A DNA stretch of 64,000 nt from an uncultured Robinsoniella sp. (GCA_965150505.1 CBCTVZ010000001.1:3488-67487); one strand, 5' to 3'; shown: positions 1 through 30,581, counted from the stretch's first letter. Program-made: numbers and translations. The notes: generated by a model from the letters alone, not told the origin.

Positions 1-1331
1 TTTATAAACCAACGATACATTTTCGTTGACTCAATAAATTTCAGTCTTTCCTGCAGCTTTAGAATCTCTTTCTTTAACTCGCCAATCTGTTCGCAGCGAC
101 TTTCTAATTCGACCAATTTTCTCGCCAATCTGTTTTCTGTGTCATTGACAAGCCGTGCCATCTCTTGAATCTGATCTTTTTTCAGCTGATCTCTCAATAA
201 AAATCGAAAATTCACTTCTATTTTATCCCATTTCATTTCTGGATCCATTGGAATCAGAAACATTGGGTCATCATGATCAAAAAGATAAATATTGCCTCTG
301 TTTAACACGGCATTATTTTTCAAATCTTTTGGGAAGATTTCTTTTTTTGTCTCACCGACATACAGATAAATCTTTCCCATCTCAATCTCACACGGTCCAT
401 TTAAAGGATCAAAACGGATCATGCCGATATGCTCATATGTTGTCAAATCCATCGCGATCTTAATCTCTTCATCGGACTCATCGAGTTTTAAGACTACGCT
501 GTCTTCTTCTCTAAAGTTCATATCTTTGGAAGCTAAGATCTGCGCAAACTGGATACTGCCCCCTTGCAGTCGTTCCCATTCATACGTTTTCTTTTCATAT
601 GATTTTATGATATTTTCATATGCGTCCTCTCCGCCGTTTACATACGCATTAAAATGTTCATTCATAGACTGGTAAATTTCTCTGTCTTCTGCGCTTAGAT
701 GAAACAGTTCATACAAATTTTCAGGATCTACCAGCTGCATCAGCTCCTGCCCATGTTTTACATACATTGCTAAAACCGTGCGATAAAAAATAAAGTCAAC
801 TGGAATAGGAAAAGCAAACACCCACTCATAATCAATAATCTGAGGTTTTCCCGTTTCTTCCTCTAAAATAATATTATCCAAAGTCAGGTCAATATTCAGC
901 ATTCTGCTTGACTCTTTGCCTTCGAGTCCCTGCTGATCTCCAAAAACTTGTTTAAATTCCTCTGTCATCTGAAATTCTTCCGTATCCTGAACGCAAAAAT
1001 TCCGCACAAAATCTTGATAATCCTGCAGGAGAATAAAAAACTGATCAATTCTTTCCTGACGAATTGCCGAAAGAAGTCTGTTATAGAAGGTATCGCCCTC
1101 TATATAGGAAAACAAAATTTCTTTTCCAGCTTTCTGACACGGCGCATAATATTCACTTCCATGCGCCCGAAAATAAATATAATTTTGGTGCATACGCTCA
1201 ATATGCTCTTTTGCCTCGTCATTTAGAGGTCTTTTAGAAACCTTTTTTCCTTCTTCTGTCTCATAAATTGCCGTCTCAATCTGAAAGTTTTTTGCTCTTT
1301 CTTTTGTAAATTTTGTATATATTTTTTTCAA
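1..1331 (-). CDS. Partial CDS whose 3' end runs off the left edge; it is absent from the supplied ORF track. Kinase-like phosphotransferase with a C-terminal coiled coil, a candidate glycan chain-terminating kinase (analogue of the WbdD kinase/coiled-coil part).
   Basis: Hand translation of the minus strand is open from ~1340 to nt 1 (>440 codons). Start candidates are TTG 1331 or GTG 1340, after an AGAAGGTGA RBS directly downstream of the methyltransferase stop (1344). A Brenner-type motif NIDLTLDNIIL is followed by IIDYEW. The last ~60 visible aa form a charged heptad-like helix (QIQEMARLVNDTENRLARKLVELESRCEQIGELKKEILKLQERLKFIES). Confidence 0.5.
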   Translation of the reverse strand, partial: MKKIYTKFTKERAKNFQIETAIYETEEGKKVSKRPLNDEAKEHIERMHQNYIYFRAHGSEYYAPCQKAGKEILFSYIEGDTFYNRLLSAIRQERIDQFFILLQDYQDFVRNFCVQDTEEFQMTEEFKQVFGDQQGLEGKESSRMLNIDLTLDNIILEEETGKPQIIDYEWVFAFPIPVDFIFYRTVLAMYVKHGQELMQLVDPENLYELFHLSAEDREIYQSMNEHFNAYVNGGEDAYENIIKSYEKKTYEWERLQGGSIQFAQILASKDMNFREEDSVVLKLDESDEEIKIAMDLTTYEHIGMIRFDPLNGPCEIEMGKIYLYVGETKKEIFPKDLKNNAVLNRGNIYLFDHDDPMFLIPMDPEMKWDKIEVNFRFLLRDQLKKDQIQEMARLVNDTENRLARKLVELESRCEQIGELKKEILKLQERLKFIESTKMYRWFI

Positions 1332-1343
1332 GATGATCACCTT

Positions 1344-2255
1344 CTATTCTTTTCCGATTTCAACAAAAAAGGAATTTGCAAAAAAATCAAACTTTCCTTC
1401 CTCAATCAGCCCTTGATATACGGCTGTCTCATCAAACAGCTTCACACGGCTGTCGTCATATGTGCTAAGTGTACAGATTAAATCCTCTTCTTTTGGAAGA
1501 TAATCATCTGAAAAAATCTGTCTTGGAAACTTATAATCTGGAAATGGATAATAAAATACGGTCTTTGAAAATCCTGCTTCTTCAATAATGGAAATCAACT
1601 TATCTTTTGAGAATGTTCTCACATGGCTGTCACCGCTTGGATATCCTTCCAAGCCCTCAAAATATTTTCCAGTGTGATCTTCTCTGACTCCTCCCCAGTA
1701 TTTCAGCCCATATTTATTTTCAATCGCCATCAAAATTTTTCCGCCCGGCTTTAACATTTTTCCAACGTTTCTTAAGAAATCTGGAAAAGGATTGTCTGTA
1801 GCTGTATAATAGGCGGCATATTCAAACACTCCGATCAGTGTAATATAGTCAAATTCCTGATTCAATTCAATGTCATTAAAATTTCCAACTACAATATTCA
1901 AGTTTGAATATTGTCTGTGGCGCAGTGCATTGATCAAAGATCTGCGCTTTGACAGATCTACGCAAGTGACAGAGCGTGCCGCTCTGCACAAAGCTCCCGT
2001 GACCGCTCCGCATCCTGAACCGACTTCCAATATTCTTGCGCCTTTTTCAAATGGATACCACTCTACAATATTTTCCCGCACTGGCGACATATGATACAAA
2101 ATCGGCCAACGCTTTTCTTTCTTTAAAATTTTATTCCAGTCTGCATCTTCTTTCACCATATCAAGCAATTCCTGCTCAATATCGCCGTCGCTATATTCGT
2201 CATTTCCGGAATAAAATGTATAGTCCATTGTCACTTTTCCTATTTGTTCCTTCAA
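1344..2255 (-). CDS. Class I SAM-dependent methyltransferase
   Basis: SAM-binding motif I ILEVGSGCGAVTGAL, acidic loop CVDLS, and post-I/II motifs (LIGVFEY, LKPGGKILMAIEN). Confidence 0.8.
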   Translation of the reverse strand: MKEQIGKVTMDYTFYSGNDEYSDGDIEQELLDMVKEDADWNKILKKEKRWPILYHMSPVRENIVEWYPFEKGARILEVGSGCGAVTGALCRAARSVTCVDLSKRRSLINALRHRQYSNLNIVVGNFNDIELNQEFDYITLIGVFEYAAYYTATDNPFPDFLRNVGKMLKPGGKILMAIENKYGLKYWGGVREDHTGKYFEGLEGYPSGDSHVRTFSKDKLISIIEEAGFSKTVFYYPFPDYKFPRQIFSDDYLPKEEDLICTLSTYDDSRVKLFDETAVYQGLIEEGKFDFFANSFFVEIGKE

Positions 2256-2293
2256 AATCGTCCCTCCTGTCGCTATGCCCCTGTTTTATTTTT

Positions 2294-3604
2294 TCATTCC
2301 AGAATCGTCTTGATCTCCTCTATGAAAGAAAATGGATTCGGATTTTCACAATATTTTTGATTTCTCTTTCCAAGTGAAACCTCTGCCTGATAGGAACTGC
2401 ACAGCTCATGCAGCTTCTGTGCAACGAGATCAGGGCTGATACTGTTCATGGATACAATATTTTCATTGAAATCTTTTAAATCTTTATTTGCAAATGTATT
2501 TGTGATTACTTTCACTCCAAAAGAAGCCATCTCAAGCGGAGGATAACTTGGATGCGGAGAAGCCATCAAAGAAATTCCAGCATAAGACTCTTCCAGCATT
2601 TTTGCATACTCCTCCAGAGTCAATTTTCCAACGGAGCGGACACTTTTTCCATTTCCCAAATCTACTGGATCATGCTGTTCTCCTGCCGATAAGATTTCCC
2701 ACTGTGCAACGTCTTCCTGCATCCAAACCCATTTTTTTAAAATTGCAACGATCAAATTAAAGGCATTTCGCTCTGTCCCTGGTCTTCCATAAATTAAAAT
2801 CTGCTTCTTTTTTGTCGCATGACCATCTAAGGTGTCCAGATGTTTTTTTAATGTTCCATTTAAGACAGGCTCAAAGGAAAACATCCATGGAAAATGATAT
2901 CCATTCTGAATAAAATAATCTCTGAGCAATCCTGTATTAAAGACAGCAATCTGAGGATATTCATCTTTATATGTGGCATCTGCAAGCAGATATCGCGTAG
3001 ACCACGGATAAAATCCCGGTTCGTAATCCTGAATAAAGTTTATAAACGGTTTTGGAGAGATCCCACATTCTTTCTCAAATCTGCGATATGCCTCCTGAGC
3101 GCAAAAAGCCGTCCACCAGCCTGTGAACATAAAATAATCCTGATCGGATACCGGCATACTCTTTCCAAATCGGTCGCTGTAAGGCAGAATCTGTCTTTTC
3201 TCCTGACTGTCCTGATCTGCCTCTACAAATACATACCGGTCTGTATATGGCGCTTTTGCCGCCTCGCTCGGCGCGGCATCCACTAAAATAATTCTGCTGT
3301 CATATCCTGTTTTGCTGACCAGTTCCTCAAAAAATTTTAATGCTGTTGAAATTCCTCCAAATACGTGTTCTGGATTGATCGATGGTACAAGCAGATTCAA
3401 TCTTTTGTTTGGAAATGAAATTTTCCGAAACGTATATGGCGTAATCTCAGCCACATTTGTGTCAAGTGTCGTTGTCTCTTCCACCACCATATTCGCAGCT
3501 TTGCGTATGGCACGCTTAATTAAATTCTTTTTCATAGTCTCTTTTTTGATACCTCTTTGTTTTTTTATTTTAACCGCGGTACACAGCTGTTCATATCGAG
3601 ACAC
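2294..3604 (-). CDS. WsaF-like (GT-B) glycosyltransferase, possibly a rhamnosyltransferase
   Basis: RLNLLVPSINPEHVFGGISTAL, ILIYGRPGTERNAFNLIV and SLMASPHPSYPPLEMASFG resemble motifs I recall from the WsaF family. The start is uncertain: it overlaps the upstream gene, and an alternative Met lies at 3535. Confidence 0.55.
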   Translation of the reverse strand: MSRYEQLCTAVKIKKQRGIKKETMKKNLIKRAIRKAANMVVEETTTLDTNVAEITPYTFRKISFPNKRLNLLVPSINPEHVFGGISTALKFFEELVSKTGYDSRIILVDAAPSEAAKAPYTDRYVFVEADQDSQEKRQILPYSDRFGKSMPVSDQDYFMFTGWWTAFCAQEAYRRFEKECGISPKPFINFIQDYEPGFYPWSTRYLLADATYKDEYPQIAVFNTGLLRDYFIQNGYHFPWMFSFEPVLNGTLKKHLDTLDGHATKKKQILIYGRPGTERNAFNLIVAILKKWVWMQEDVAQWEILSAGEQHDPVDLGNGKSVRSVGKLTLEEYAKMLEESYAGISLMASPHPSYPPLEMASFGVKVITNTFANKDLKDFNENIVSMNSISPDLVAQKLHELCSSYQAEVSLGKRNQKYCENPNPFSFIEEIKTILE

Positions 3605-5328
3605 TTATTATAGTAAGGATCGCTGTGTCCATGATAATTTTCATACATCTTATAAGAAAGTTTAAAATCTATTTCTGGAATATAAGAATCCCTGCTTTTT
3701 GATTCAAAATGATGCAGTTGTACATAAGGGTCATATACATTGACATATCCTCTGTTAATAGCACGAATGCAGATTTCAATATCACTTCCGCAGATAATAA
3801 ACTGCTCATCAAAATTTCCGATGGTCTCAATCGTCTCTCTTGAGATCGCCATACATGCCCCCGTCACGGCTGTCACATTTCGTGTTACCATTGGTGAGAT
3901 AAACGGTGATCCATAATGAACAGGTTTCATGCCCTTAAATACATGATCTGCCCATCCTCCCATACCAGAGACGACTCCGGCATGTTGGATTGTGCCATCC
4001 TCATAAAGCAGCAGCCCTCCAACGACTCCTGTACCCTTTCTCATCGCTTTTTCTGCTAATCTCTCCATCCAATCAGGCGTAATCACATCCATGTCGTTGT
4101 TCATAAAGATAAAGAGATCTCCCTTGGCCTGACGTATTCCAAAATTATTTAACTTTGACCAGTTAAATTCAAACAGTGCATCCACCACTCGTAGATTGGA
4201 ATATTTCTGTACTGCCTCTGCAAAATATCGTTTTGTTTCCTCTTCTTCTGAATTATTGTTTAAAATAATGATCTCATAATTCGGATACGTTGTTTTTTCT
4301 TCAATCGTGTCAATCACATTTCTCAGATAATCTGCATGGTCTTTTGTCGGCATGATAATGGAAACAAGTGGTTTCGTTTTCAGATGAAATCTGACATCAT
4401 ATACAAATAAAGAATCAGTCTCCTCTGCCGTGGCTGTCCCTTCTCCATAAAAACGGTCAAGATGACTTTGAATCGCCTTTAAGCCTGCCGTCTGCGCATA
4501 CGGTTTGGAATCTGGATTTGCGGCAGTAGAACTTGGAAGCGCTCTCCAATAATATAACACTTTGGCAATGTGTTCGATGTTCTGTGTCTGCTCTACAAGT
4601 CGAAGCATCAAATCATAATCCTGACTACCATTATATTCACTGCGAAATCCTCCAACTTTTTCAAATAAACTTTTGCGAAAACCAAGTAAATGTCCAATAT
4701 ACATCTGGCTTAAAAGCAAATCATACGACCAATCTGGCTTATGAAGCGGCTCTCTATGTTTTCCTTCCTCGTCAATGATATCCTGATCACTGTAAAGAAT
4801 ATCGGCATCTGTCTTTTTAATTCTCTTATAAAATTCATATAATGCACGCGGTGCAAGCTCATCGTCATTGTCCATTAAAACGAGGTATTCTCCTGATGCA
4901 AGGCGCGCCGCTGCGTTCGTGGCTTCAGAAATACCTCCGTTTTCTTTTTGAAACTGTATTTTAATTCTTTTGTCTTCAATTTCTTCCAAATACAGGCGAA
5001 CTTTTGGATCTGTGGAGCAGTCGTCTACGATACAAAGCTCCCAATTTTCATAATTCTGATGGCGAATAGATGAGATCGCCGCTTCAAGCCATTTGATTTC
5101 TACATTGTATACCGGCATTAAAATAGAAAAGCGAATATCGCCTGTACATTTCTGCGCCTCTTTTTCTTCTGGCTCATACGGATACAATTCATAATCTGCA
5201 CGATGTTTAAAATTCTCCATGAATCCCTTCGGTCCATGTTTTATAAAATATTTTATCCCCTTAAAAAATGTCTTTGGTTTTCTGACGCAAAGACTTGCCA
5301 TTGCAAAAATCTTTTTAATTTTCTGCAT
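3565..5328 (-). CDS. Two-domain GT2 glycosyltransferase (tandem GT-A folds), polymerising type
   Basis: There are two GT2 signatures. The first is FSILMPVYNVEIKWLEAAISSIRHQNYENWELCIVDDCSTD ... MDNDDEL. The second is VSIIMPTKDHADYLRNVIDTI...YEIIILNNNS ... MNNDMDV. Confidence 0.8.
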   Translation of the reverse strand: MQKIKKIFAMASLCVRKPKTFFKGIKYFIKHGPKGFMENFKHRADYELYPYEPEEKEAQKCTGDIRFSILMPVYNVEIKWLEAAISSIRHQNYENWELCIVDDCSTDPKVRLYLEEIEDKRIKIQFQKENGGISEATNAAARLASGEYLVLMDNDDELAPRALYEFYKRIKKTDADILYSDQDIIDEEGKHREPLHKPDWSYDLLLSQMYIGHLLGFRKSLFEKVGGFRSEYNGSQDYDLMLRLVEQTQNIEHIAKVLYYWRALPSSTAANPDSKPYAQTAGLKAIQSHLDRFYGEGTATAEETDSLFVYDVRFHLKTKPLVSIIMPTKDHADYLRNVIDTIEEKTTYPNYEIIILNNNSEEEETKRYFAEAVQKYSNLRVVDALFEFNWSKLNNFGIRQAKGDLFIFMNNDMDVITPDWMERLAEKAMRKGTGVVGGLLLYEDGTIQHAGVVSGMGGWADHVFKGMKPVHYGSPFISPMVTRNVTAVTGACMAISRETIETIGNFDEQFIICGSDIEICIRAINRGYVNVYDPYVQLHHFESKSRDSYIPEIDFKLSYKMYENYHGHSDPYYNKCLDMNSCVPRLK

Positions 5329-6610
5329 TCTCTATACTCCTTTTATACGTTACCGTCGAGTCCAGATCACAAAATCCGACAGTAGTTTTCTTTGACAGCA
5401 CTTGAATACAGCAGATATCATACAATCTGTGATAGACGACGAGCGTATCTCCTTCATATCCTGTACACCCAAGCGAAAGTAAATGCTGTCCTCCCTGCAG
5501 AACCATTTTCTGTGAAAATGCAATCTCTACTGTTTCTCCAGCCTCTATCTTCCCTGTATCCGTCTTTTCAATGATCGTATTTGTCCCTGCCAATTCATTT
5601 CCTTTTAAATCCTTGATACTGAACGCAAAAATCGGATTTTCGATCGTCTGATGAAATTTCACTCTCATCTTGATAGTAAACGGCTTCATTTTATAGATCG
5701 TATTGGAAATCTGATTCTCATGATCAAAAATTCCAAAACTTATGATCGTGGCGCGTTTATCCCCATAATCCTGATAGTTCGGATTTAAAAGCATATAATC
5801 AAGCCACGTTCCCTTCTGCACTTCCAAATTGCTCTGCGGCTTTTTTTCTTCTTGCTTTTCCTCTTCTGGCTCATCCTGACCTACCAAAATCTTCTTATAC
5901 AGATCCACCATCTCTTTTGTAGGGCCTTCTGCATATTTTTTTCCGTCGTTAATGATGATCGCTCTCTCACAGTATTTCATCACGCTTCCCATATCATGTG
6001 TCACAAACAATACTGTTTTTCCGCTGTTTTTTAAATCTTCCATCCGTTTATAACATTTTGCCTGAAAGAAGACATCCCCCACCGACAACGCTTCATCAAT
6101 GATTAAAATATCTGGATCTACGCTGATCGCCACAGCAAAGGCAAGGCGTGCAAACATTCCGCTGGAATACGTCTTTACTGGCTGTTTAATAAAATCTCCA
6201 ATATCAGCAAATTTTAAAATCTCTGGAAGCTTCTTCTCCATCTCTTCCTCAGAAAATCCCATCATCGTTCCGCTTAAATATGCGTTTTGAATCCCATTAT
6301 ATTCTGGATTAAATCCGGCTCCAAGCTCTAAAAGCGCTGAAATCTTTCCATTTATCGTCACTTCTCCCGATGTAGGCATCAAAACACCGGTGATAATTTT
6401 TAGAATTGTAGATTTTCCTGCCCCATTTTTTCCAATAATTCCCACCATTTCTCCTTTTTTCACTTCAAAGGAAACATGGTTCAGGGCATGAAATTCTTTG
6501 TGATAACTTTTTTTATGAATACTGAGTGCTTCTTTAAATCTCAACGTTGGCTTATCATAAAGACTGTACACTTTTGAGACATCAGAAACGGAAATTGCTA
6601 TATCACTCAT
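5315..6610 (-). CDS. wzt: Polysaccharide-export ABC ATP-binding protein (Wzt/TagH type) with a C-terminal glycan-binding-like extension
   Basis: Walker A GKNGAGKST, signature YSSGMFARL and Walker B ILIIDEA. An acidic linker (DEPEEEKQEEKK) is followed by a ~160-aa beta-rich C-terminal domain (nt 5315-5803), typical of Wzt_C. Confidence 0.8.
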   Translation of the reverse strand: MSDIAISVSDVSKVYSLYDKPTLRFKEALSIHKKSYHKEFHALNHVSFEVKKGEMVGIIGKNGAGKSTILKIITGVLMPTSGEVTINGKISALLELGAGFNPEYNGIQNAYLSGTMMGFSEEEMEKKLPEILKFADIGDFIKQPVKTYSSGMFARLAFAVAISVDPDILIIDEALSVGDVFFQAKCYKRMEDLKNSGKTVLFVTHDMGSVMKYCERAIIINDGKKYAEGPTKEMVDLYKKILVGQDEPEEEKQEEKKPQSNLEVQKGTWLDYMLLNPNYQDYGDKRATIISFGIFDHENQISNTIYKMKPFTIKMRVKFHQTIENPIFAFSIKDLKGNELAGTNTIIEKTDTGKIEAGETVEIAFSQKMVLQGGQHLLSLGCTGYEGDTLVVYHRLYDICCIQVLSKKTTVGFCDLDSTVTYKRSIENAEN

Positions 6611-6625
6611 CTATTTTCTCCTGTC

Positions 6626-7417
6626 TTATAATACATCTGCAAAATGCGGTTTTAACTTCTGGTATACCTTTCGGCTCACAACAAATAATAAAATGGTAAA
6701 TACCCAAAAATAAATTGTAATCTTCCATCGCTCAAAAAACCAAACATGCCCAATCATGGTGTCACGATATCCCTGAACAATATAAAACATCGGATTCAGC
6801 TTAAAAATCTGTTTTAACCAGCCTGGAAGCGGCATCGTCTCAAACTGCCACATAATCGGTGTCATCCAAACTCCAATCTGCATAATAATTCCTACAATCT
6901 GTGTTGTGTCGCGAAAAAATACGGCAATCGCTGAAGTTAGATAGCAGACAGCCAGAGACAGTAAAATCATTGCCGCTGAATAATAAAGCAGCTGAATCAC
7001 AATTATTCCTGGAAATAGTCCCATGATCGCATAGCAGACAAGAAGCAGAATCACAAAAAAGCCATGTACAAATAAAGACGACATAATTTTTACAATCGGA
7101 AGAATTTTAATCTCAAATTTTACTTTTTTGACAAGATAATTATATTCTAAAAAACAGTTTGTTCCATTAATTACGGATTCTGAAAAATAAAACCATGGAA
7201 TCAAACCTGCCATCAGCCAAAGCACAAACGGTATATTTTCTATATCTGAACTGCGAAATCCCAACTGAAAGACGAACCAGTACAATAAAATGGTAATCAA
7301 AGGCTGCACAAAAGCCCAGAAAATGCCGAAATAAGAACCGGCATATTTTGTCCGGAAATCATTTTTTGCAAGATATATCATTAATTTTTTATTCTTTTTC
7401 AAGGTTTCCATCGACAA
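6626..7417 (-). CDS. wzm: ABC-2 type polysaccharide export permease (Wzm/TagG type)
   Basis: N-terminal motif KNDFRTKYAGSYFGIFWAFVQPL, six predicted TM segments, and adjacency to wzt. Confidence 0.85.
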   Translation of the reverse strand: MSMETLKKNKKLMIYLAKNDFRTKYAGSYFGIFWAFVQPLITILLYWFVFQLGFRSSDIENIPFVLWLMAGLIPWFYFSESVINGTNCFLEYNYLVKKVKFEIKILPIVKIMSSLFVHGFFVILLLVCYAIMGLFPGIIVIQLLYYSAAMILLSLAVCYLTSAIAVFFRDTTQIVGIIMQIGVWMTPIMWQFETMPLPGWLKQIFKLNPMFYIVQGYRDTMIGHVWFFERWKITIYFWVFTILLFVVSRKVYQKLKPHFADVL

Positions 7418-7576: not shown

Positions 7577-8515
7577 CTATTTTTCTTCAACTCTTTTTCC
7601 TTCCTTACCGATTTGGGCAGAAATCAGATATCGTGGCCGTCCTTTTACTTCTTCGTAAATTTTAGCGATATAATATCCGATAATTCCAAGACTGATCATC
7701 ACAATACTTCCTATAATCAAAATCAACAAAATTACGGTTGTAAATCCTTCCACCGCATGACCTGAAAAATAGCGCACAAGCGACTGAATCCCTAAAACAA
7801 CTGCCATTAGCAGAACAAATGTGCCTGCAATCGTGACAAGCTGCATCGGCGCTGCTGAAAAAGAAGCAATATTCGTAACGGCATATTTTATGAGAGACCA
7901 TGTGGACCATTTCGATTCTCCTTCTTCTCTCTCCTGCACATCAAATTCCACCGTTGCCGTTCGATAGCCGATCCATGATGATAATGCTCTAAAAAAGGCA
8001 TTTCTCTCTGGCATAGCAAGCAGTGCATCGACTGCTTTTCTGTCAAGCAATTTATAATCGGATGCCCTTGACATATCAATCTTGACTGCCATCGTCATCA
8101 GACGGTAAAACAAGCCTGCGCTTGCCTTATGAAGGGCGCTTTCTTCTCCTCTGCTCTTTTTTACTCCTTCTACAACCTCATATCCCTGCTCCCACAGGCG
8201 ATACATCTCTACAAGCGTCTGCGGAGGATGCTGCAGATCACAGTCCATGACGGCGCAACAATCTCCTTCTGCTCCTGCAAGTCCGGCAAAAATTGCAGAT
8301 TCTTTTCCAAAATTTCTTGAAAACAACAGTCCTCTTACATGAGTATTTTTTTCAGCTGCCTTTTTTATCTCTTCCCAAGTTCTATCCTTTGAACCATCAT
8401 TTATAAAAATCAGTTCATAAGAGATATCAGCCTGTTCTAAAATTTCTGAAATTACTTCTGCTGCTTTTCCTACCATTTTTTCTTCATTGTAGGCAGGCAA
8501 TACTACTGACAGCAT
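7577..8515 (-). CDS. GT2 polyprenyl-phosphate sugar synthase (GtrB/CsbB/ArnC-like)
   Basis: LSVVLPAYNEEKMV...LIFINDGSKDRT...MDCDLQHPP, plus two C-terminal TM helices. This is the characteristic GtrB-like architecture. Confidence 0.8.
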   Translation of the reverse strand: MLSVVLPAYNEEKMVGKAAEVISEILEQADISYELIFINDGSKDRTWEEIKKAAEKNTHVRGLLFSRNFGKESAIFAGLAGAEGDCCAVMDCDLQHPPQTLVEMYRLWEQGYEVVEGVKKSRGEESALHKASAGLFYRLMTMAVKIDMSRASDYKLLDRKAVDALLAMPERNAFFRALSSWIGYRTATVEFDVQEREEGESKWSTWSLIKYAVTNIASFSAAPMQLVTIAGTFVLLMAVVLGIQSLVRYFSGHAVEGFTTVILLILIIGSIVMISLGIIGYYIAKIYEEVKGRPRYLISAQIGKEGKRVEEK

Positions 8516-21214: not shown

Positions 21215-21967
21215 CTATTTCTTTTCCTGTTCCAGTGCTTCCATGTAAGCGTCACAGACCGTATTGACCTCTCCTGCCATCATCTGCTCCCCTTTGTTGA
21301 TCCAGATTGCATGATCACACAGTTTTTTTACAGAATCAATATTGTGTGAAACATATAAAAGCGTTGTGCCTCCACCGAGCATTTGCGTCATACGCTGATT
21401 GCATTTTTTTCTAAAACGCGCATCTCCAACTGCCAAAATTTCATCCACCACTAAAATATCTGGGTTGACCATCGTAGCCACTGAAAATCCCAGTCTTGCT
21501 TTCATACCCGAAGAGAAATTTTTGATCGGAGAATCCAAAAACTGATGCAGATCTGCAAATTCTACAATTTCATCAAAATGCTCATCCATAAATTTCTTAG
21601 AATGTCCCAAAACAGTTCCATTCAGATAAATATTTTCTCGCGCAGTCAAATTCATGTCGAATCCTGCTCCCAGTTCAATCAGCGGTGCGATCTCTCCTCG
21701 TACAATCACTTCCCCTTTATATGGCTTCATGATTCCGCTGATCGCCTTTAATAAAGTGGACTTTCCTGAACCATTTGTTCCGATCAGTCCCCAAGCTTCC
21801 CCTTTTTTTATCTTTAAATTGATATTTTTCAGAGCTAAAAACTCCTGAAACATCAATTCTTTTTTCACCAGTTTAACAAAATATTCTTTTAAATTATCTA
21901 CTTTCTCACTCGCCAAATTAAAACGGATTGTGAGATCATTTACTTCAATGATATATTTTTCTTCCAT
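21215..21967 (-). CDS. Polysaccharide/teichoic-acid export ABC ATP-binding protein, short form without a C-terminal binding domain
   Basis: Walker A GTNGSGKST, signature FSSGMKARL and Walker B ILVVDEI. The likely start is MEEKY at 21967, after GGTGGA. The longer ORF-track start overlaps the permease gene. Confidence 0.85.
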   Translation of the reverse strand: MEEKYIIEVNDLTIRFNLASEKVDNLKEYFVKLVKKELMFQEFLALKNINLKIKKGEAWGLIGTNGSGKSTLLKAISGIMKPYKGEVIVRGEIAPLIELGAGFDMNLTARENIYLNGTVLGHSKKFMDEHFDEIVEFADLHQFLDSPIKNFSSGMKARLGFSVATMVNPDILVVDEILAVGDARFRKKCNQRMTQMLGGGTTLLYVSHNIDSVKKLCDHAIWINKGEQMMAGEVNTVCDAYMEALEQEKK

Positions 21968-26235: not shown

Positions 26236-26979
26236 CTACATTCTCTTATAGACACAGTACATACCTGTATCTCCTAAAAGTGTCCAACCTGCTTCTTCCG
26301 GCATAGATTGAAAGAGAGCATCTGCCTTTATTACGATATAAGAACATTTATAATATTTTGCCACTTTCTCTAAATATTCCACATCGATCACTTCCTGCTG
26401 CAAAGCATCCATAACACGAGTCAGATTGGAGGAATATCCTCTTCTTCCATACAGCATTGTCACATCTGCTGAGTATTGACGCACATATGTGATTAAATCC
26501 GGATGGACAATGGCTCTTCCTTCTGCTCCATCCTCGATAATCAGTTCACATACTCCTGCTGCCTGATCTGGTATTTTATATGTATTCTCTGCTTTTGTGA
26601 AATTTTCCTGTGTATAGATCCATTTACCGCCTATTATGATCATTGCCGAAAACATGATACACGCAAAAAGACGCATAAACCATTCTTTTCTCTCCCATGC
26701 GACATCTGTCACTACATAGGCAATTAAAGGAAGCAGGGGTAAGGTCCAAAAGACTCTCCAGTAAACATTTCCTTCCAGCATTTTCTCAACGATAGCCGCC
26801 ACAATAGGATTAAAAATCAAAATAAGCAATATGATTGCAGCATACGCAAAAAGTCCCGCCTTTTTTCTTGCACGCTTACGGATGATAATATATAGCAATG
26901 CCGCAATCATGAAATAAAAATACCATCCATCGGCAAAATACTGCCAAAATGCCTGTACTGCCGTCTCAAAATGATTCAT
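26236..26979 (-). CDS. Membrane protein with ~4 N-terminal TM segments and a soluble C-terminal domain; function unknown
   Basis: Hydrophobic N-terminal half, and a hydrophilic C-terminal ~120 aa. The RBS GGGGGA lies 12 nt after the stop of the upstream polytopic gene. Confidence 0.5.
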   Translation of the reverse strand: MNHFETAVQAFWQYFADGWYFYFMIAALLYIIIRKRARKKAGLFAYAAIILLILIFNPIVAAIVEKMLEGNVYWRVFWTLPLLPLIAYVVTDVAWERKEWFMRLFACIMFSAMIIIGGKWIYTQENFTKAENTYKIPDQAAGVCELIIEDGAEGRAIVHPDLITYVRQYSADVTMLYGRRGYSSNLTRVMDALQQEVIDVEYLEKVAKYYKCSYIVIKADALFQSMPEEAGWTLLGDTGMYCVYKRM

Positions 26980-26991
26980 CTCAGCATCCCC

Positions 26992-28023
26992 CTATAGTAT
27001 CAAATAAATTCCGCCCAGAACAATCGACGGTATCAGGCATAAAACAGCCGGCCATACTGTTCGGATCGTTCTTCTTCTGATCAATTCTGCAAGGGAAAAT
27101 GCTCCCAGAACAAATGGCCCTAATACTACGCCCATAGAAGATACCATACATCCTGAACACATCAACAAAAACATGATAAACCATTCTGACCAATTTTCTT
27201 TTTTCTCATAAAGGCGAAATGCAAACAGAAAGATTGCCGGTATTAAAATCGCTGATAAGATTGCTTTTCCTTGCCAGATGCGAAACAGTAAAAAACTAGA
27301 AGAAGTATATATGCTGAAGTTTCCAAACACATTCAAAAAACTGATGGTTACGACAAAAAATGCTGCTTTTTTTTCGTCCCCTGTCAATTCTTTCCCCATT
27401 TTATAATAAATCAGGTAAGCAACTGCTATCAAAATCACTGGAAAAATGGTATGCGCTGTGATCGTTGGATGAATATGGATCAACTCTGCAAAATATGCTG
27501 TAAAAATTGGAAAGGATGACAGCGCATACCTCGTTGGCAGTCCATTCAGCGGCATTCCTGTATAACTTGAAAAGCGATACATGGAATCTGTCTTCAGCGT
27601 TGTAACGGCTGTTGCCACATAAAAAGCATCATCTGCATCTTCATGTACATAAAATACAAGAATAAAAATCTGCGCCGCTACGGCTAGGACGGCAAGCACA
27701 GCCCAAAAATTTATTTTTCTTATTGACCTGCCGACACTTTTTATCATCTGTAAAAACTGATATCGAAATACAAGAACGGCTATAACTGCCATCCCTGAAA
27801 AAAAGACATGGCAGACTATCCGCAAAATATGATATGGCACTTTTAACAGCGTCATCGGAACACACAAGATTTCAAACCATGCAAGAATAAAAATCCATCC
27901 GCTTATATAATTTAAAATCAATCCATCTTTTTCTTTTCCCCAGTGTGTACACCACGTTCCCAAACAAAGCGGAAAAATACCTGCTGCCACTAGCAGTATG
28001 ATTGCCTTCCAAACTACACTCAT
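26992..28023 (-). CDS. Polytopic membrane protein, GT-C-like (candidate extracytoplasmic glycosyltransferase)
   Basis: ~10 TM segments. An acidic motif HEDADDAFYVATA follows an early TM hairpin, resembling the first-loop DxD/DD motif of GT-C enzymes. Confidence 0.4.
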   Translation of the reverse strand: MSVVWKAIILLVAAGIFPLCLGTWCTHWGKEKDGLILNYISGWIFILAWFEILCVPMTLLKVPYHILRIVCHVFFSGMAVIAVLVFRYQFLQMIKSVGRSIRKINFWAVLAVLAVAAQIFILVFYVHEDADDAFYVATAVTTLKTDSMYRFSSYTGMPLNGLPTRYALSSFPIFTAYFAELIHIHPTITAHTIFPVILIAVAYLIYYKMGKELTGDEKKAAFFVVTISFLNVFGNFSIYTSSSFLLFRIWQGKAILSAILIPAIFLFAFRLYEKKENWSEWFIMFLLMCSGCMVSSMGVVLGPFVLGAFSLAELIRRRTIRTVWPAVLCLIPSIVLGGIYLIL

Positions 28024-28061: not shown

Positions 28062-30263
28062 CTAATAATTCAAACATACGCCATACTGTGAAAAGCGATA
28101 CCATCTGCCATTGATATATAAATTCTCTGATTTTGCCATTGTTCCATCTGCTTTCAGATAATATCGATTTCCATTTAACTGCGCCCAGCAGCTTCTGACC
28201 ATATGACCGTTTCCTACTCTGAAATAATATCTGTCATTTCCGATATTAACCCATCCATGCTGACGAACGCCATTGCTGTCATAATACAGCTTGCTGCTTC
28301 CAAGTGTCAGCCATCCACTTACACGGCGGCCATATCTATTTACATAATAATACTTTCCATTTAATTTCAGATGTTTGCTGATTGCCATAGATCCATCTTT
28401 TTGCAGATAATACCACTTTGTGCCGTATTTCACCCATCCAAACTGCATGACTCCTCTGCTGTTCATAAAATATTTTTTCCCATTAATGGTATTCCATCCA
28501 GATTTTACAACTCCATCTGTATGGAAATGGTGATAATATCCGTCTGGCAATTTCCAGCGTCCCGTCAGCATCGTACCGTATCGGTTAAAATAATATAAAT
28601 CTCCGTCAATGCGGTACCATCCTTTGACCATCTTTAGATCTTCTGTGTAATATCTCGTCTTGCCGTTGACTACATTAAATCCCGGTCGAATCGTTCCCGT
28701 GTTTTTCTTCTTCAGTCCATAATACTCTGCGATTGCCTTGGCATCTGCAACGCCTAAAGCTCTAATCTTCGCATCGCTTCCATAATATTTTTCACAATCA
28801 GATGGGTTGCTTACAAATCCATGTTCCACAATCATACTTGGAAGATTTGCAAGGATTCCATAGCGCACGATTGCCATATAGTCAGATGGCTGTCCATTTG
28901 GATATTTGCCTCCGTCATCGCTTTCCTGAATCAAAAAGCCCATATTTTTCAATCCAATACTGCCCAATTTTGAAAGGATCTCATTTGCAATCGCCTTTGC
29001 CTCGTTTGCCACATCTGGACGATACTTTCCATTTGACACATATACAAGCGCTCCTGAAACCGTCGTCTGTGTCTGGGCAGTTGAATTAATATGCTGACTG
29101 ATCAGCACATCGCCTCCTACAGAAACGGCATAATCTACTCGCTCTTTTAATCCCACATAGACATCGGACGTTCTTGTCATGTAGACACGAACTCCTTCAT
29201 ATGTCTCTAATTCTTCTTTTGTAGCCTGTGATATTTTCAGCGCAATGTCTTTTTCCACATATGTTATCCCATTCCATGTGCGGGAAGCGCCTCCGTCATA
29301 TCCGCCATGTCCTGGATCTAAGACAACTACAACACTTCCATTTGCTCTGGAAAGATCTGAATTACCGCCCTGTGCACCTGCTGCATCCATAATACTTCCG
29401 ATCTGTGAAGCGTCAGCTGCTACCAGTCCTGTATCTTCTCCACTATATTGCGCTACTTCTACTGTGCCTTCCTCCTGAAAGGAATCCGTTGAAGTTTCCT
29501 TACTGCTGATAAATTCAGGAATGGAACAGATGGTATCTTTTCCGTCTATCGTCAAAGAAAGGCTCTGAAGATCCCCTTGCGTTAAAACCTTGCCTTCCAC
29601 TAAAAAAGCAATATAATCTTCTGCAATCTCCACACAAGATAAATTTACGTTCTGACCAGAAGACGGATCTACATATGATAAAGAAGCGCTTTCTAAGACT
29701 CCTCCTGCTAAATCCACCTGAAAAACAATCGCCTGCGCTACTTCTTCCTCTGCCGGCTGTCCTAAATACATCATTACAATTTCAGGCGTTTTCTCTTCTG
29801 TCTCGGTTTCGCTTTCTGTTTCCGTTTCACTCTCTGTTTCCGTTTCGCTCTCTGTTTCCGTTTCACTTTCCGTTTCGCTTTCTGTTTCCGTTTCGCTTTC
29901 TGTCTGTGTTTCGCTCTCCGTCTCTATTTCGCTTTCCGTCTGCGTTTCGCTCTCTGTTTCCGTTTCGCTTTCCGTCTGCGTTTCGCTTTCTGCCTGCGTT
30001 TCGCTTTCCGTCTGTGTTTCGCTTTCTATCTGCGTTTCACTTTCCGTCTGTGTTTCGCTTTCTATCTGCGTTTCACTTTCCGTCTGCGTTTCCAACTGTT
30101 CTGTGATACTTTCCGTTTCCTGACTTGTTTCATATAATTGACCTTCAGAAGAAATACCCTCTGCCTGCAATACCGCTCCAAAAATATTACATAATAGCAG
30201 GATACAGATTATAAAACCTGCAATACGTCTCATATATGGTTTTTTCCCTATGTCGTGTTTCAT
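28062..30263 (-). CDS. Secreted N-acetylmuramoyl-L-alanine amidase (Amidase_3) with an acidic Ser/Thr/Glu repeat linker and C-terminal cell-wall binding repeats
   Basis: Signal peptide MRRIAGFIICILLLCNIFGAVLQAEG and a (SETQTE/SETETE)n tract. The catalytic region reads VVVLDPGHGGYDGGA...ISQHINS. There are ~10 C-terminal GW..(I/L)(N/D)G..YYF..G.M repeats (CW_binding_1 type). Confidence 0.9.
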   Translation of the reverse strand: MKHDIGKKPYMRRIAGFIICILLLCNIFGAVLQAEGISSEGQLYETSQETESITEQLETQTESETQIESETQTESETQIESETQTESETQAESETQTESETETESETQTESEIETESETQTESETETESETESETETESETETESETETESETETEEKTPEIVMMYLGQPAEEEVAQAIVFQVDLAGGVLESASLSYVDPSSGQNVNLSCVEIAEDYIAFLVEGKVLTQGDLQSLSLTIDGKDTICSIPEFISSKETSTDSFQEEGTVEVAQYSGEDTGLVAADASQIGSIMDAAGAQGGNSDLSRANGSVVVVLDPGHGGYDGGASRTWNGITYVEKDIALKISQATKEELETYEGVRVYMTRTSDVYVGLKERVDYAVSVGGDVLISQHINSTAQTQTTVSGALVYVSNGKYRPDVANEAKAIANEILSKLGSIGLKNMGFLIQESDDGGKYPNGQPSDYMAIVRYGILANLPSMIVEHGFVSNPSDCEKYYGSDAKIRALGVADAKAIAEYYGLKKKNTGTIRPGFNVVNGKTRYYTEDLKMVKGWYRIDGDLYYFNRYGTMLTGRWKLPDGYYHHFHTDGVVKSGWNTINGKKYFMNSRGVMQFGWVKYGTKWYYLQKDGSMAISKHLKLNGKYYYVNRYGRRVSGWLTLGSSKLYYDSNGVRQHGWVNIGNDRYYFRVGNGHMVRSCWAQLNGNRYYLKADGTMAKSENLYINGRWYRFSQYGVCLNY
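29796..30092 (-). repeat. In-frame tandem 12-nt (and 24/36-nt) periodic repeat encoding the E/S/T-rich linker of the amidase
   Basis: The plus strand reads GTTTCGCTTTCTGTTTCCGTTTCACTCTCTG... and similar units for ~300 nt. Confidence 0.9.
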
Positions 30264-30314
30264 AAGTACTCCTTTCCTTAAACTTTACTCCTGTTATTTT
30301 TAAGAATTTATTTC

Positions 30315-30343
30315 ATTATAAAGTATCCTTGTTTTTTTGTCAA
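30315..30343 (-). promoter_or_regulatory. Perfect-consensus sigma-A promoter of the amidase gene
   Basis: The minus strand reads TTGACA (30343-30338), a 17-nt spacer AAAAAACAAGGATACTT, then TATAAT (30320-30315). It lies ~50 nt upstream of the ATG at 30263. Confidence 0.65.
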
Positions 30344-30472
30344 TTTTTTGTAACAATTTTGTAATTTTTGTTTCTATTCATTACTTTTATTTTTCTTTTT
30401 TGCGTGATATTTTCTTTTTATCTGACAAGCATTGATAAAGTCTTAAGATTTTTTAAGAAGCTTTAAACTTAA

Positions 30473-30501
30473 TTGAAAATTTTTTTACTTTATAGTATAT
30501 T
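30473..30501 (+). promoter_or_regulatory. Candidate sigma-A promoter of the L,D-transpeptidase gene
   Basis: TTGAAA (30473-30478), a 17-nt spacer, then TATATT (30496-30501). It lies ~80 nt upstream of the ATG at 30582. Confidence 0.4.
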
Positions 30502-30581
30502 TAATATTAAGAAGAGAGTTTTCGTTTTCTTCTCTTCTCTTTCCATTCCATAAACAAATTATTTTTTAAGAAAGGAGTTTT

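What the first reader, a model, noticed from the sequence alone, without database searches (positions are those of the whole stretch)
1..6610. Split WbdD-like chain terminator (methyltransferase gene plus an unlisted kinase/coiled-coil gene) paired with a Wzt that carries a C-terminal binding domain
Seen:
- The minus strand is an open frame from ~1340 to nt 1 and is missing from the ORF track.
- That frame has a Brenner-type kinase motif (NIDLTLDNIIL...IIDYEW) and ends, within the window, in a charged heptad-like helix.
- A SAM methyltransferase (GxGxG) lies immediately upstream.
- The nearby ABC ATPase (5315-6610) has a ~160-aa beta-rich C-terminal extension, whereas the second ATPase of the locus (21215-21967) has none.

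Known: in E. coli O9a-type ABC-dependent O-antigen synthesis, WbdD (methyltransferase, kinase, coiled coil) caps the chain. Its coiled coil acts as a molecular ruler, and the Wzt C-terminal domain recognises the cap.

Inference: the same cap-and-recognise logic operates here in a Gram-positive wall-glycan locus. The WbdD domain order is preserved but split into two genes.
Basis: partly seen in the sequence, partly recalled or inferred. Interest (0 to 1): 0.62.

Follow-up and report, generated by a model that had tools for sequence, protein, structure and literature searches.

The report
Split glycan chain-capping kinase and methyltransferase
A gut Lachnospiraceae bacterium encodes, as two adjacent genes, a methyltransferase and a sugar kinase with a coiled-coil tail that most likely cap a rhamnose-type wall polysaccharide with methyl-phosphate so its exporter can recognise it; this is a Gram-positive, split version of a system shown in Klebsiella O7 in 2024, not a relative of E. 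coli WbdD.

Summary
An unlisted minus-strand gene fills window 1-1340 and ends only 11 codons beyond the edge (457-aa ORF, probably 454 aa from a TTG start).

What the gene encodes (AlphaFold pLDDT 92.5):
- an APH/choline-kinase-like kinase domain with invariant Lys, Asp, Asn and Asp;
- a beta-sandwich with no close solved relative;
- a 54-residue heptad helix and a basic, aromatic tail.

Its neighbours are a SAM methyltransferase, a WsaF-type GT, a double GT2, and a Wzt carrying Pfam Wzt_C (E 2.5e-40).

Cap-and-recognise logic is strongly supported. In 151 Lachnospiraceae genera the family co-occurs with Wzt_C (81 of 88; always within 6 kb on shared contigs). Relatives fuse the kinase to the methyltransferase or to the polymerase GTs.

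It is not WbdD-like in sequence or fold. The closest characterised relative is the Klebsiella pneumoniae O7 ORF6 methyltransferase-kinase terminator, which puts methyl-phosphate on a terminal rhamnose:
- methyltransferase 36% identical;
- kinase plus beta-domain hhalign probability 96%;
- double GT2 41% identical.

I rate it a new member of a known kind, in split form, in a very widespread and unannotated Gram-positive family. The chemistry is inferred, not shown.

The parts
1..1340 (-). Gene for the kinase / beta-sandwich / coiled-coil protein. The ORF is 457 aa from the GTG at 1340. The likely true start is the TTG at 1331, giving 454 aa. The stop lies 34 nt left of the window, at contig C1:3454-3456.
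   Evidence: No Pfam or NCBIfam hit. The family has 2112 representatives at 50% clustering.
591..1340 (-). Kinase domain (residues 1-250), protein-kinase-like / APH fold. Catalytic loop D151-N156 lies at 873-890 and D170-W173 at 822-833.
   Evidence: AlphaFold pLDDT 92.5. Foldseek hits APH(3')-Ia, macrolide phosphotransferases, LicA and Csk at E 1e-5 to 4e-4 with probability 1.0. Invariant K36/D151/N156/D170. hhalign to the kinase domain of an ORF6-O7-type protein at 95.8% probability.
192..554 (-). Beta-sandwich domain (residues 263-383) with conserved motifs R-x-D-P and D-P.
   Evidence: Models (pLDDT 94.6). No significant PDB fold match (best E 0.011; weak CBM/jelly-roll hits at TM 0.4-0.5). 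Aligns with the post-kinase domain of the P. asturiensis ORF6-type protein. Kelly et al. describe an Ig-like 'CBM' at this position.
27..188 (-). Coiled-coil helix (residues 385-438, 54 aa, about 8 nm if straight).
   Evidence: DSSP on the model. Heptad analysis gives a/d 73% hydrophobic and 43% charged residues. The profile picks up keratin and tropomyosin coils.
1..26 (-). Start of the basic, aromatic C-terminal tail TKMYRWFIKKKVKKFFDLN (residues 439-457; the last 11 residues lie outside the window).
   Evidence: net charge +6 to +7. A weak motif match I..S..W(K/R) to WbdD 580-604.
1344..2255 (-). Class I SAM methyltransferase of the ORF6-O7-N type (303 aa). Motifs: YSDGD, LEVGSGCGAVT, FDYITLIGVFEYA, AIENKYGLKYWGG.EDH, PDYKFP, ANSF.
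   Evidence: Pfam. 36% identity over 231 aa to K. pneumoniae O7 ORF6-N, E 2e-37. Fusion profile against the C. braakii ortholog at probability 100%, E 2e-51.
2294..3604 (-). WsaF-type glycosyltransferase (436-aa ORF). The WsaF family is a rhamnosyltransferase family.
   Evidence: Pfam WsaF_N E 7e-66 and WsaF_C E 5e-52. In relatives it is fused to the GT2-GT2 protein and to the kinase module.
3565..5328 (-). Double GT2 glycosyltransferase (587 aa), the putative polymerase.
   Evidence: Pfam Glycos_transf_2 twice. 41% identity over 487 aa (E 6e-115) to the C-terminal GT2-GT2 part of the P. asturiensis ORF6-O7-type protein.
5315..6610 (-). Wzt ABC ATPase with a C-terminal Wzt_C recognition domain (residues 280-416, window 5363-5773).
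   Evidence: Pfam Wzt_C E 2.5e-40. 38% identical to O9 Wzt and 40% to C. braakii Wzt. The C-terminal domain alone scores 58 bits against ORF6-type partners and 37 bits against O9.
6626..7417 (-). Wzm ABC-2 permease.
   Evidence: Pfam ABC2_membrane E 1.3e-14.

Best explanation
Window 1-7417 holds one cassette for ABC-transporter-dependent synthesis of a rhamnose-type cell-wall glycan in an uncultured gut Lachnospiraceae. It comprises Wzm, Wzt with a Wzt_C domain, a double-GT2 and a WsaF-type glycosyltransferase (the polymerase), a SAM methyltransferase, and a kinase / beta-sandwich / coiled-coil protein.

The last two genes together are a split homolog of the N-terminal terminator of Klebsiella pneumoniae O7 ORF6.

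Proposed mechanism (inferred from that homolog):
1. The kinase phosphorylates a hydroxyl of the non-reducing terminal sugar of the growing lipid-linked chain.
2. The methyltransferase methylates that phosphate. The methyl-phosphate cap stops elongation.
3. The Wzt_C domain binds the cap, so only finished chains are exported.
4. The coiled coil and basic tail hold the kinase at a set distance from the membrane-bound polymerase and so influence chain length.
5. The beta-sandwich may help hold the glycan.

Shown here: gene structure, folds, conserved catalytic residues, homology to the O7-type terminator, polymerase and transporter, fusions, and genomic linkage to Wzt_C.

Inferred, not shown: the chemistry of the cap, the sugar, the ruler role, and how the separate methyltransferase is recruited.
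For: Gene and fold:
- Full ORF and start codon.
- AlphaFold pLDDT 92.5 with three modules.
- Foldseek to APH(3'), Mph and LicA kinases at probability 1.0.
- Invariant K36/D151/N156/D170 in 64 homologs.

Homology to the characterised O7 system:
- Kelly et al. 2024 showed that ORF6-O7-N phosphorylates and then methylates a Rha-terminated acceptor, that D441A abolishes this, and that the domain order is methyltransferase, AmiN-like kinase, Ig-like domain, coiled coil, GT2-GT2.
- The window methyltransferase is 36% identical to it (E 2e-37).
- The fusion-family profile scores 181 bits against it.
- hhalign of that profile to a real C. braakii ortholog gives probability 100%, E 2e-51, over 481 colinear columns spanning methyltransferase and kinase.
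- The stand-alone kinase family profile against the P. asturiensis ortholog gives probability 95.8%, E 8e-9, over 342 columns spanning kinase and beta-domain.
- The window GT2-GT2 is 41% identical to that protein's C-terminal GT2-GT2.

Functional linkage:
- Fusions of methyltransferase + kinase and of kinase + GT2-GT2(+WsaF).
- Conserved synteny Wzm-Wzt(Wzt_C)-GTs-methyltransferase-kinase next to rml genes.
- Across 151 genera, 81 of 88 genomes with the family also have Wzt_C. All 78 same-contig pairs lie within 6 kb (median 1.75 kb). Fisher p about 1e-23.

Other:
- Wzt_C E 2.5e-40, closer to ORF6-type partners than to O9.
- RmlC is present in the genome.
Against: - No chemistry was measured. 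The cap, the acceptor sugar and the export dependence are all inferred from a homolog that is only 20-36% identical.
- The kinase domain on its own is too diverged for significance against one of the two real orthologs (A1 against C. braakii: probability 15%). It was also not significant against the partial OCR text of ORF6-O7.
- The coil is short (54 aa), and its oligomeric state and ruler role are untested.
- The methyltransferase has no coiled coil of its own, so how it reaches the phosphorylated terminus is unknown.
- The Fisher test ignores phylogenetic relatedness, although every genome sampled is a different genus.
- The rml genes are not in the window.
Confidence: 0.75

Rival explanations
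1. It is a true split ortholog of E. coli O9a WbdD: a WbdD methyltransferase and a WbdD Src-like kinase with a coiled-coil ruler, separated into two genes.
For: - Same order of activities, and a coiled coil followed by a basic tail.
- A short motif at the end of the coil, I..S..W(K/R), aligns with WbdD 529-603 (11 bits).
- Wzt is 38% identical to O9 Wzt.
Against: - Profile searches of the PDB with the kinase family and with the fusion family do not list WbdD entries, while generic methyltransferases and kinases score better.
- Foldseek's top 50 are APH, Mph, LicA and eukaryotic kinases, not WbdD.
- hhalign to WbdD aligns only 92 columns of the SAM core (probability 83%) and 25 columns of tail (probability 16%).
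- The same profiles align to ORF6-O7-type proteins over 342-481 columns at 96-100%.
- Kelly et al. state that the O7 and O3/O9 kinase domains differ in sequence and structure.
Confidence: 0.04
2. The kinase and methyltransferase modify the glycan, but not as a methyl-phosphate cap. For example, the phosphate may be an internal or terminal decoration with a separate O-methylation, or the cap may be phosphate alone. The coiled coil would then be only an oligomerisation or scaffold element with no ruler role.
For: - The two enzymes are separate polypeptides here.
- In other Lachnospiraceae the same beta-sandwich/coiled-coil module carries a methyltransferase with no kinase, directly after a Wzt with Wzt_C. 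Caps therefore differ within the family.
- The in vitro O7 reaction also gave a phosphorylated-only product.
Against: - The methyltransferase is of the specific ORF6-O7-N type, which methylates a phosphate.
- Methyltransferase and kinase are fused in more than 4,500 relatives and adjacent in split relatives. That argues for consecutive action on one site.
- Tight linkage to Wzt_C argues for a terminal recognition epitope.
Confidence: 0.15
3. The pair is a small-molecule pathway unrelated to chain termination. For example, a LicA-like ethanolamine/choline kinase plus a phosphoethanolamine N-methyltransferase could make phosphocholine to decorate wall polymers that anchor the choline-binding-repeat proteins encoded nearby.
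For: - Foldseek lists the choline kinase LicA among hits.
- The fusion profile weakly hits plant and nematode phosphoethanolamine N-methyltransferases in the PDB.
- The window encodes an amidase and an L,D-transpeptidase with choline-binding repeats.
Against: - No LicD family gene is found anywhere in the genome, though the assembly is 88.6% complete.
- The kinase carries a beta-sandwich, a coiled coil and a membrane-type tail, and is fused to polymerising glycosyltransferases in relatives.
- It shows near-obligate adjacency to Wzt_C.
- There is strong homology to a biochemically proven glycan terminator.
- The phosphoethanolamine methyltransferase hits cover only the generic SAM core.
Confidence: 0.03

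Closest known systems
Klebsiella pneumoniae O7 ORF6 (ORF6-O7-N methyltransferase-kinase terminator plus C-terminal GT2-GT2 rhamnosyl polymerase), Kelly et al., J Biol Chem 2024, PMC11231755
   Same: - Homologous methyltransferase domain with the same extended motifs (36% identity).
- APH/AmiN-like kinase with the catalytic Asp in the same loop.
- Beta-sandwich (Ig-like 'CBM') after the kinase, then a coiled coil.
- Homologous GT2-GT2 polymerase (41% identity).
- A Wzm/Wzt partner with Wzt_C.
- dTDP-rhamnose context in relatives.
   Different: - Here one polypeptide is replaced by three or four genes: methyltransferase; kinase-beta-coil; GT2-GT2; WsaF. The methyltransferase is therefore not tethered to the coil.
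- The host is a monoderm Lachnospiraceae, so the product is a wall or surface glycan, not LPS O antigen.
- An extra WsaF-type GT is present.
- The kinase sequence is strongly diverged.
- The published orthologs were from alpha- and gammaproteobacteria and cyanobacteria only.
Escherichia coli O9a / K. pneumoniae O3 WbdD (methyltransferase-kinase-coiled coil; PDB 4AZS family; PMC3482155)
   Same: - Works alike in outline: kinase plus methyltransferase, a coiled coil, a basic C-terminal membrane-type region, and a partner Wzt whose C-terminal domain reads the cap.
- A weak shared motif at the end of the coil.
   Different: - No detectable homology of the catalytic domains beyond the generic SAM core.
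- WbdD's kinase is Src-like, while this one is APH-like.
- WbdD has no beta-sandwich.
- WbdD's non-catalytic C-terminal region spans residues 460-708, against a 54-aa coil here.
- WbdD is a single polypeptide.
E. coli O8 / K. pneumoniae O5 WbdD (methyltransferase-only terminator)
   Same: In other Lachnospiraceae (G085, G132) the same beta-sandwich/coiled-coil/tail module as in this window carries only a methyltransferase, directly after a Wzt with Wzt_C. This parallels the O8-versus-O9a pair of terminators.
   Different: That variant is not in this window, and no homology to O8 WbdD was tested.
Aminoglycoside/macrolide phosphotransferases and choline kinase LicA (APH/ChoK branch of the protein-kinase-like superfamily)
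   Same: - Fold of residues 1-250 (Foldseek probability 1.0).
- Brenner-type motif D-x4-N and a downstream metal-binding Asp.
- They phosphorylate hydroxyl groups of sugars or small alcohols.
   Different: - Only 9-14% identity, with TM-scores of 0.3-0.54 on the target.
- No Pfam APH hit.
- This protein carries beta-sandwich and coiled-coil modules and sits in a glycan assembly locus.

Membership tests
K. pneumoniae O7 ORF6-N-type methyltransferase-kinase terminators | Extended class I SAM methyltransferase domain of this type (YSDGD ... LE.G.GCGA.T ... LIGV.EYA ... AIEN..GLKY..G..EDH ... PDYK.P ... ANSF) | tested here: met
   Window methyltransferase against ORF6-O7-N text: 36% identity over 231 aa, E 2e-37. 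Profile score 181 bits. hhalign probability 100% to the C. braakii ortholog.
K. pneumoniae O7 ORF6-N-type methyltransferase-kinase terminators | AmiN/APH-like kinase domain with a catalytic Asp equivalent to D441 | tested here: met
   Foldseek to the APH/Mph/LicA family. Invariant D151/N156. hhalign A1 against the P. asturiensis ortholog gives probability 95.8% with FIDAVPQN on NIDLxFDN. The comparison is weaker against C. braakii alone (probability 15%).
K. pneumoniae O7 ORF6-N-type methyltransferase-kinase terminators | Beta-sandwich (Ig-like, 'CBM') domain between kinase and coiled coil | tested here: met
   Models. The domain aligns with residues ~560-694 of the P. asturiensis protein. Carbohydrate binding itself was not shown.
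K. pneumoniae O7 ORF6-N-type methyltransferase-kinase terminators | Coiled coil following the catalytic modules | tested here: met
   A 54-residue helix with one heptad register.
K. pneumoniae O7 ORF6-N-type methyltransferase-kinase terminators | Methyltransferase and kinase on one polypeptide | tested here: not met
   Two genes in the window, separated by TAG + 12 nt. The split is conserved in relatives at 31-34% identity. Fused forms exist in more than 4,500 relatives.
K. pneumoniae O7 ORF6-N-type methyltransferase-kinase terminators | Associated GT2-GT2 polymerase and a Wzt with a C-terminal binding domain | tested here: met
   GT2-GT2 is 41% identical. Wzt_C E 2.5e-40. Wzt is 40% identical to the C. 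braakii partner.
K. pneumoniae O7 ORF6-N-type methyltransferase-kinase terminators | Installs methyl-phosphate on the non-reducing terminal rhamnose, and this is required for export | not testable with these tools
   Needs glycan NMR/MS, enzyme assays and mutants.
E. coli O9a WbdD family | Kinase domain homologous to WbdD residues 211-459 (Src-like fold) | tested here: not met
   No alignment of the kinase region by hhalign or hmmsearch. WbdD is not among the top Foldseek hits or PDB profile hits.
E. coli O9a WbdD family | Methyltransferase domain specifically related to WbdD residues 1-210 | tested here: not met
   Only the generic SAM-binding core aligns (92 columns, probability 83%). WbdD is absent from the 60 best PDB hits of the fusion profile.
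E. coli O9a WbdD family | C-terminal coiled coil plus a membrane-associating region | tested here: inconclusive
   A coil is present but short. The tail is basic and aromatic (net +7) with a modest hydrophobic moment of 0.33. The motif match to WbdD 580-604 is weak.
Wzt with C-terminal carbohydrate-binding domain (Pfam PF14524) | Wzt_C domain fused to an ABC ATPase, adjacent to a Wzm ABC-2 permease | tested here: met
   (138 bits against a cut-off of 30.4). Full-length 38-40% identity to O9 and C. braakii Wzt.
Protein-kinase-like superfamily, APH/ChoK branch | Beta-3 Lys, catalytic Asp with Asn at +5, metal-binding Asp, bilobal fold | tested here: met
   K36, D151, N156 and D170 are invariant. 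Fold confirmed. No Pfam APH hit.

The most novel reading that the evidence does not exclude
The beta-sandwich / coiled-coil / basic-tail module may be a portable terminator scaffold in gut Clostridia. It appears with a kinase (this window), with a methyltransferase only (G085, G132), with methyltransferase plus kinase, or with the polymerase itself.

In the split form, a free methyltransferase would have to be recruited in trans to a phosphorylated chain end.

If so, more than half of Lachnospiraceae genera make wall glycans of regulated length with a methyl-phosphate or methyl end-cap. That would be an unrecognised and chemically distinctive surface epitope of abundant human gut commensals.
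Probability: 0.3. Interest if true: 0.55.

Novelty: new member of a known kind. Interest (0 to 1): 0.38.

Why it matters
**Annotation.** The cassette gives a concrete annotation to a very large protein family that has no Pfam model. There are 2,112 clusters of the kinase module at 50% identity and more than 4,500 fused proteins. Databases call them only "methyltransferase" or "hypothetical protein".

**Biology.** It predicts that ABC-dependent wall glycans of many gut Lachnospiraceae are end-capped and length-controlled by the mechanism just worked out for Klebsiella O7 (88 of 151 genera sampled carry the family).

**Why the end group matters.** Terminal methyl-phosphate groups are small, unusual epitopes. 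Surface rhamnans of this bacterial family are known immune stimulants, for example the R. gnavus glucorhamnan. The end group is therefore a testable target for host-recognition and phage-receptor work.

**Scope of the advance.** It extends a proteobacterial and cyanobacterial enzyme family to monoderm bacteria and shows that its modules can be split and recombined. It does not reveal a new mechanism.

Tried and rejected
- **WbdD orthology: rejected.** phmmer and profile searches of the PDB, Foldseek, and direct hhalign/hmmsearch against WbdD fetched from E. coli HS show only the SAM core and a short tail motif.
- **Pfam/NCBIfam assignment of the 457-aa protein:** no hit.
- **Beta-domain as a Wzt_C-like or known CBM fold: not supported.** The best Foldseek E is 0.011, with only weak CBM/jelly-roll/cupin similarity.
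- **Phosphocholine pathway rival:** no LicD in the genome.
- **Recent nonsense or frameshift split of a fused gene: rejected.** The split arrangement recurs in relatives at 31-34% identity, and the junction has its own Shine-Dalgarno sequence and start codon.
- **Technical dead ends:** The search for related loci with the alignment, the genome search centred on a locus, and one malformed paper search.
- **The search for homologous proteins with the fusion alignment** listed only Firmicutes, so the proteobacterial orthologs had to be recovered another way. I used the paper's supplement text and tblastn on plasmids.
- **Supplement text limits.** The OCR text of ORF6-O7 is imperfect and stops at the catalytic loop. 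The kinase comparison against it was not significant, so real orthologs were used instead.


Full report
**1. Observation**

The ORF listing with open ends shows a minus-strand frame from 1340 to the first bases of the window, 446 aa within it. The window is positions 3488-67487 of an 80-kb contig. Fetching the 3.5 kb to the left shows the frame stops 11 codons beyond the edge, giving 457 aa from the GTG.

The junction with the upstream gene reads GAA TAG aAGGTGAtcatc TTG AAA AAA. The GTG lies inside a Shine-Dalgarno-like AAGGTGA. The TTG downstream gives MKKIYTKF..., the N-terminus of all homologs, and the closest homolog is 454 aa. I therefore take TTG at 1331 as the start. Residue numbers below follow the 457-aa ORF.

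**2. What the unlisted protein is**

It has no Pfam or NCBIfam hit and no significant PDB sequence hit. It nevertheless belongs to a large family: 2,112 representatives at 50% clustering reach E <= 0.001, and 1,540 reach E <= 1e-10.

In an alignment of 64 diverse members the invariant residues are T23, K36, G82, D151, N156, D170, E172, W173 and R187. This includes the beta-3 lysine, the catalytic Asp with Asn at +5, and the metal-binding Asp of protein-kinase-like enzymes.

AlphaFold2 with that alignment gives mean pLDDT 92.5 and four parts:
- an alpha/beta domain (residues 1-250);
- an all-beta domain (263-383);
- one 54-residue helix (385-438);
- a short terminal helix.

Foldseek against the PDB returns aminoglycoside 3'-phosphotransferases, macrolide 2'-phosphotransferases, the choline kinase LicA, APH(2'')/APH(9), and then eukaryotic protein kinases. 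E-values run from 1e-5 to 4e-4, probability is 1.0, and identity is 9-14%.

The helix has one clear heptad register, with a/d positions 73% hydrophobic against 21% elsewhere and 43% charged residues. The family profile picks up keratin and tropomyosin coils there.

The tail TKMYRWFIKKKVKKFFDLN has net charge +6 to +7 but only a modest hydrophobic moment.

The beta-domain modelled alone (pLDDT 94.6) has no significant solved relative. The best hit has E 0.011, and only weak CBM, jelly-roll and cupin resemblances appear at TM 0.3-0.5.

**3. Is it WbdD?**

I fetched WbdD (708 aa) and Wzt from the O9 locus of E. coli HS.

- hhalign of the kinase family against WbdD aligns only 25 columns at the end of the coil: IESTKMYRW on IHRSRSWRM, probability 16%.
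- A local hmmsearch aligns only WbdD 529-603, at 11 bits.
- A profile of fused relatives aligns only 92 columns of the SAM-binding core (probability 83%).
- WbdD is absent from the listed PDB hits of either profile and from the Foldseek top 50.

Two defining features of WbdD membership were thus tested and not met. Wzt, in contrast, is a clear homolog of O9 Wzt: 38% identity over all 431 residues.

**4. The real relative**

A literature search led to Kelly et al. 2024 (PMC11231755). K. pneumoniae O7 ORF6 has this layout:
- an N-terminal methyltransferase;
- a previously unannotated 223-residue domain whose closest structure is the amicoumacin kinase AmiN (APH family);
- an Ig-like domain 'indicative of a CBM';
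- a coiled coil;
- two C-terminal GT2 rhamnosyltransferase modules.

In vitro it converts a Rha-terminated acceptor to the phosphorylated and the methyl-phosphorylated product, and D441A abolishes this. In vivo the D441A mutant makes polymer that is not exported. Orthologs were reported from alpha- and gammaproteobacteria and cyanobacteria.

The paper's supplementary alignment is held as text. From it I reconstructed about 445 N-terminal residues of ORF6-O7 and two orthologs, with OCR errors.
- The window methyltransferase is 36% identical to it over 231 aa (E 2e-37), and 34-37% identical to the agrobacterial and cyanobacterial orthologs.

To obtain error-free full-length sequences I ran tblastn on the plasmid collection. 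It found orthologs on Citrobacter braakii pF217-3 (649 aa) and Pseudomonas asturiensis pCC1524 (1,457 aa). Each follows Wzm and a Wzt with Wzt_C, and the Citrobacter one lies next to rfbA/C/D and rffG.
- hhalign of the fusion profile to the Citrobacter protein gives probability 100%, E 2e-51, over 481 colinear columns covering the methyltransferase and the whole kinase domain. LDAIPSNFVID lies on NIDLIF.NII, and FEREW on IDYEW.
- The stand-alone kinase family profile, which includes the window protein, aligns to the Pseudomonas protein at probability 95.8%, E 8e-9, over 342 columns covering kinase and beta-domain. LRLDPVD lies on IRIDP.N.
- The same profile against the Citrobacter protein alone is weak but in the same register (probability 15%).
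- The window's 587-aa double GT2 is 41% identical over 487 aa to residues 923-1404 of the Pseudomonas protein (E 6e-115).
- The Wzt_C domain of the window scores 58 bits over its whole length against both ORF6-type partners, but 37 bits over two thirds of its length against O9.

The window therefore contains a disassembled ORF6-O7 system.

**5. Genomic evidence that the parts work together**

Close and distant relatives keep the order Wzm, Wzt(Wzt_C), GT2-GT2-WsaF, methyltransferase, kinase protein, GT2x2, often beside rmlA/C/D.

Three kinds of fusion occur:
- methyltransferase + kinase (P0015 and nine others; more than 4,558 such proteins with E <= 1e-10, mostly 710-730 aa, named only 'methyltransferase' or 'hypothetical protein' in Lachnospiraceae, Blautia and Ruminococcus);
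- kinase + GT2-GT2;
- kinase + GT2-GT2-WsaF.

In 151 genomes, each from a different genus of the same family:
- 88 have the kinase-family profile and 90 have Wzt_C;
- 81 have both;
- in all 78 cases where both are on one contig they lie within 6 kb (median 1.75 kb);
- the odds ratio is 69 and Fisher p about 1e-23. This test ignores phylogeny.

In eleven genomes only the beta-domain/coil part matches. In G085 and G132 that part is fused to a methyltransferase with no kinase, directly after a Wzt with Wzt_C, and ends in NSTSWK.TKP.R. This is the counterpart of the methyl-only terminators of E. coli O8.

The length of the tail after the beta-domain varies from 33 to 166 residues in the family.

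**6. Organism and locus**

The nearest relatives are uncultured gut Lachnospiraceae/Clostridiales MAGs. The genome has RmlC on another contig.

The window also holds a second, separate ABC-dependent module: Glf, two GlfT2-like GTs, pyruvyltransferase fusions, and an ATPase without Wzt_C. Only the rhamnan-type cassette uses a cap reader.

**7. Mechanism**

Shown here: folds, catalytic residues, homology, fusions and linkage.

Inferred from ORF6-O7:
1. The kinase phosphorylates the terminal sugar.
2. The methyltransferase methylates the phosphate.
3. The cap blocks elongation and is read by Wzt_C.
4. The coil and basic tail position the kinase relative to the membrane-bound polymerase.

Unknown: how the untethered methyltransferase is recruited, the oligomeric state, the sugar and its position, and whether a 54-residue coil (about 8 nm) acts as a ruler.

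**8. Rivals**

- True WbdD orthology: about 4%.
- Modification other than a methyl-phosphate cap, or no ruler role: about 15%.
- A phosphocholine pathway: about 3%. No LicD is found in the genome.

**9. Novelty**

No paper in the searchable library describes this family in Firmicutes. However, the enzyme family and mechanism were published in 2024, and the concept of capped ABC-dependent glycans in Gram-positive bacteria is older.

I rate it a new member of a known kind, notable for three things: the split of methyltransferase and kinase, its very wide distribution in gut Clostridia, and its lack of annotation.

Noticed in passing
L022:1779-3143 (genome G085) and L024:1492-2871 (genome G132): In other Lachnospiraceae the same beta-sandwich / coiled-coil module, ending in NSTSWK.TKP.R, is fused to a methyltransferase with no kinase, directly after a Wzt with Wzt_C. 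This looks like a methyl-only terminator, analogous to E. coli O8 WbdD.
   Followed up: partly
proteins P0100, P0166-P0281: More than 4,500 fused methyltransferase-kinase-beta-coil proteins of about 710-730 aa exist in Lachnospiraceae, Blautia and Ruminococcus. Sources name them only 'methyltransferase' or 'hypothetical protein'. The kinase, beta and coil parts have no Pfam model.
   Followed up: partly
window 1-26 and WbdD residues 580-604 (L008): A short motif at the end of the coiled coil, I-x-x-S-x-x-W-(K/R), is shared between this family, the methyltransferase-only variants (NSTSWKVTKPIR) and E. coli WbdD (RSRSWRMTKGYR). It may be a common membrane-binding or polymerase-docking element. 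Statistically weak (11 bits).
   Followed up: partly
L002:2084-3433, 898-2118 and 2-835 (contig just left of the window): Downstream of the kinase gene lie three genes: a 449-aa polytopic membrane protein (weak Agl23/GT-C-like hit), a WecE-type dTDP-4-amino-4,6-dideoxyhexose aminotransferase (E 4e-194), and another GT2. These suggest an amino-dideoxy sugar in the same or a neighbouring glycan.
   Followed up: no
L027 (C. braakii pF217-3) and L026 (P. asturiensis pCC1524): Complete ORF6-O7-type clusters (Wzm, Wzt with Wzt_C, terminator, GTs) are carried on plasmids. The Citrobacter cluster also has rml genes, and its plasmid is typed as conjugative (MOBF, MPF_F). Such glycan loci may therefore be horizontally mobile.
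   Followed up: no
window 7577-8515: A GtrB/CsbB-like GT2 with C-terminal transmembrane segments sits right after the Wzm gene. It could supply a lipid-linked sugar for extracytoplasmic side-chain addition to the glycan.
   Followed up: no
window 28062-32657: An Amidase_3 autolysin and a YkuD L,D-transpeptidase, divergently transcribed, both carry many choline-binding / cell-wall-binding repeats. The genome lacks LicD, so their ligand is probably a wall glycan rather than phosphocholine.
   Followed up: partly
window 26236-28023: A DUF6077 membrane protein (E 1e-104) with a 247-aa partner of no family. The same DUF6077 gene appears in the related locus L005, near a pyruvyltransferase and Stealth-family proteins.
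   Followed up: no
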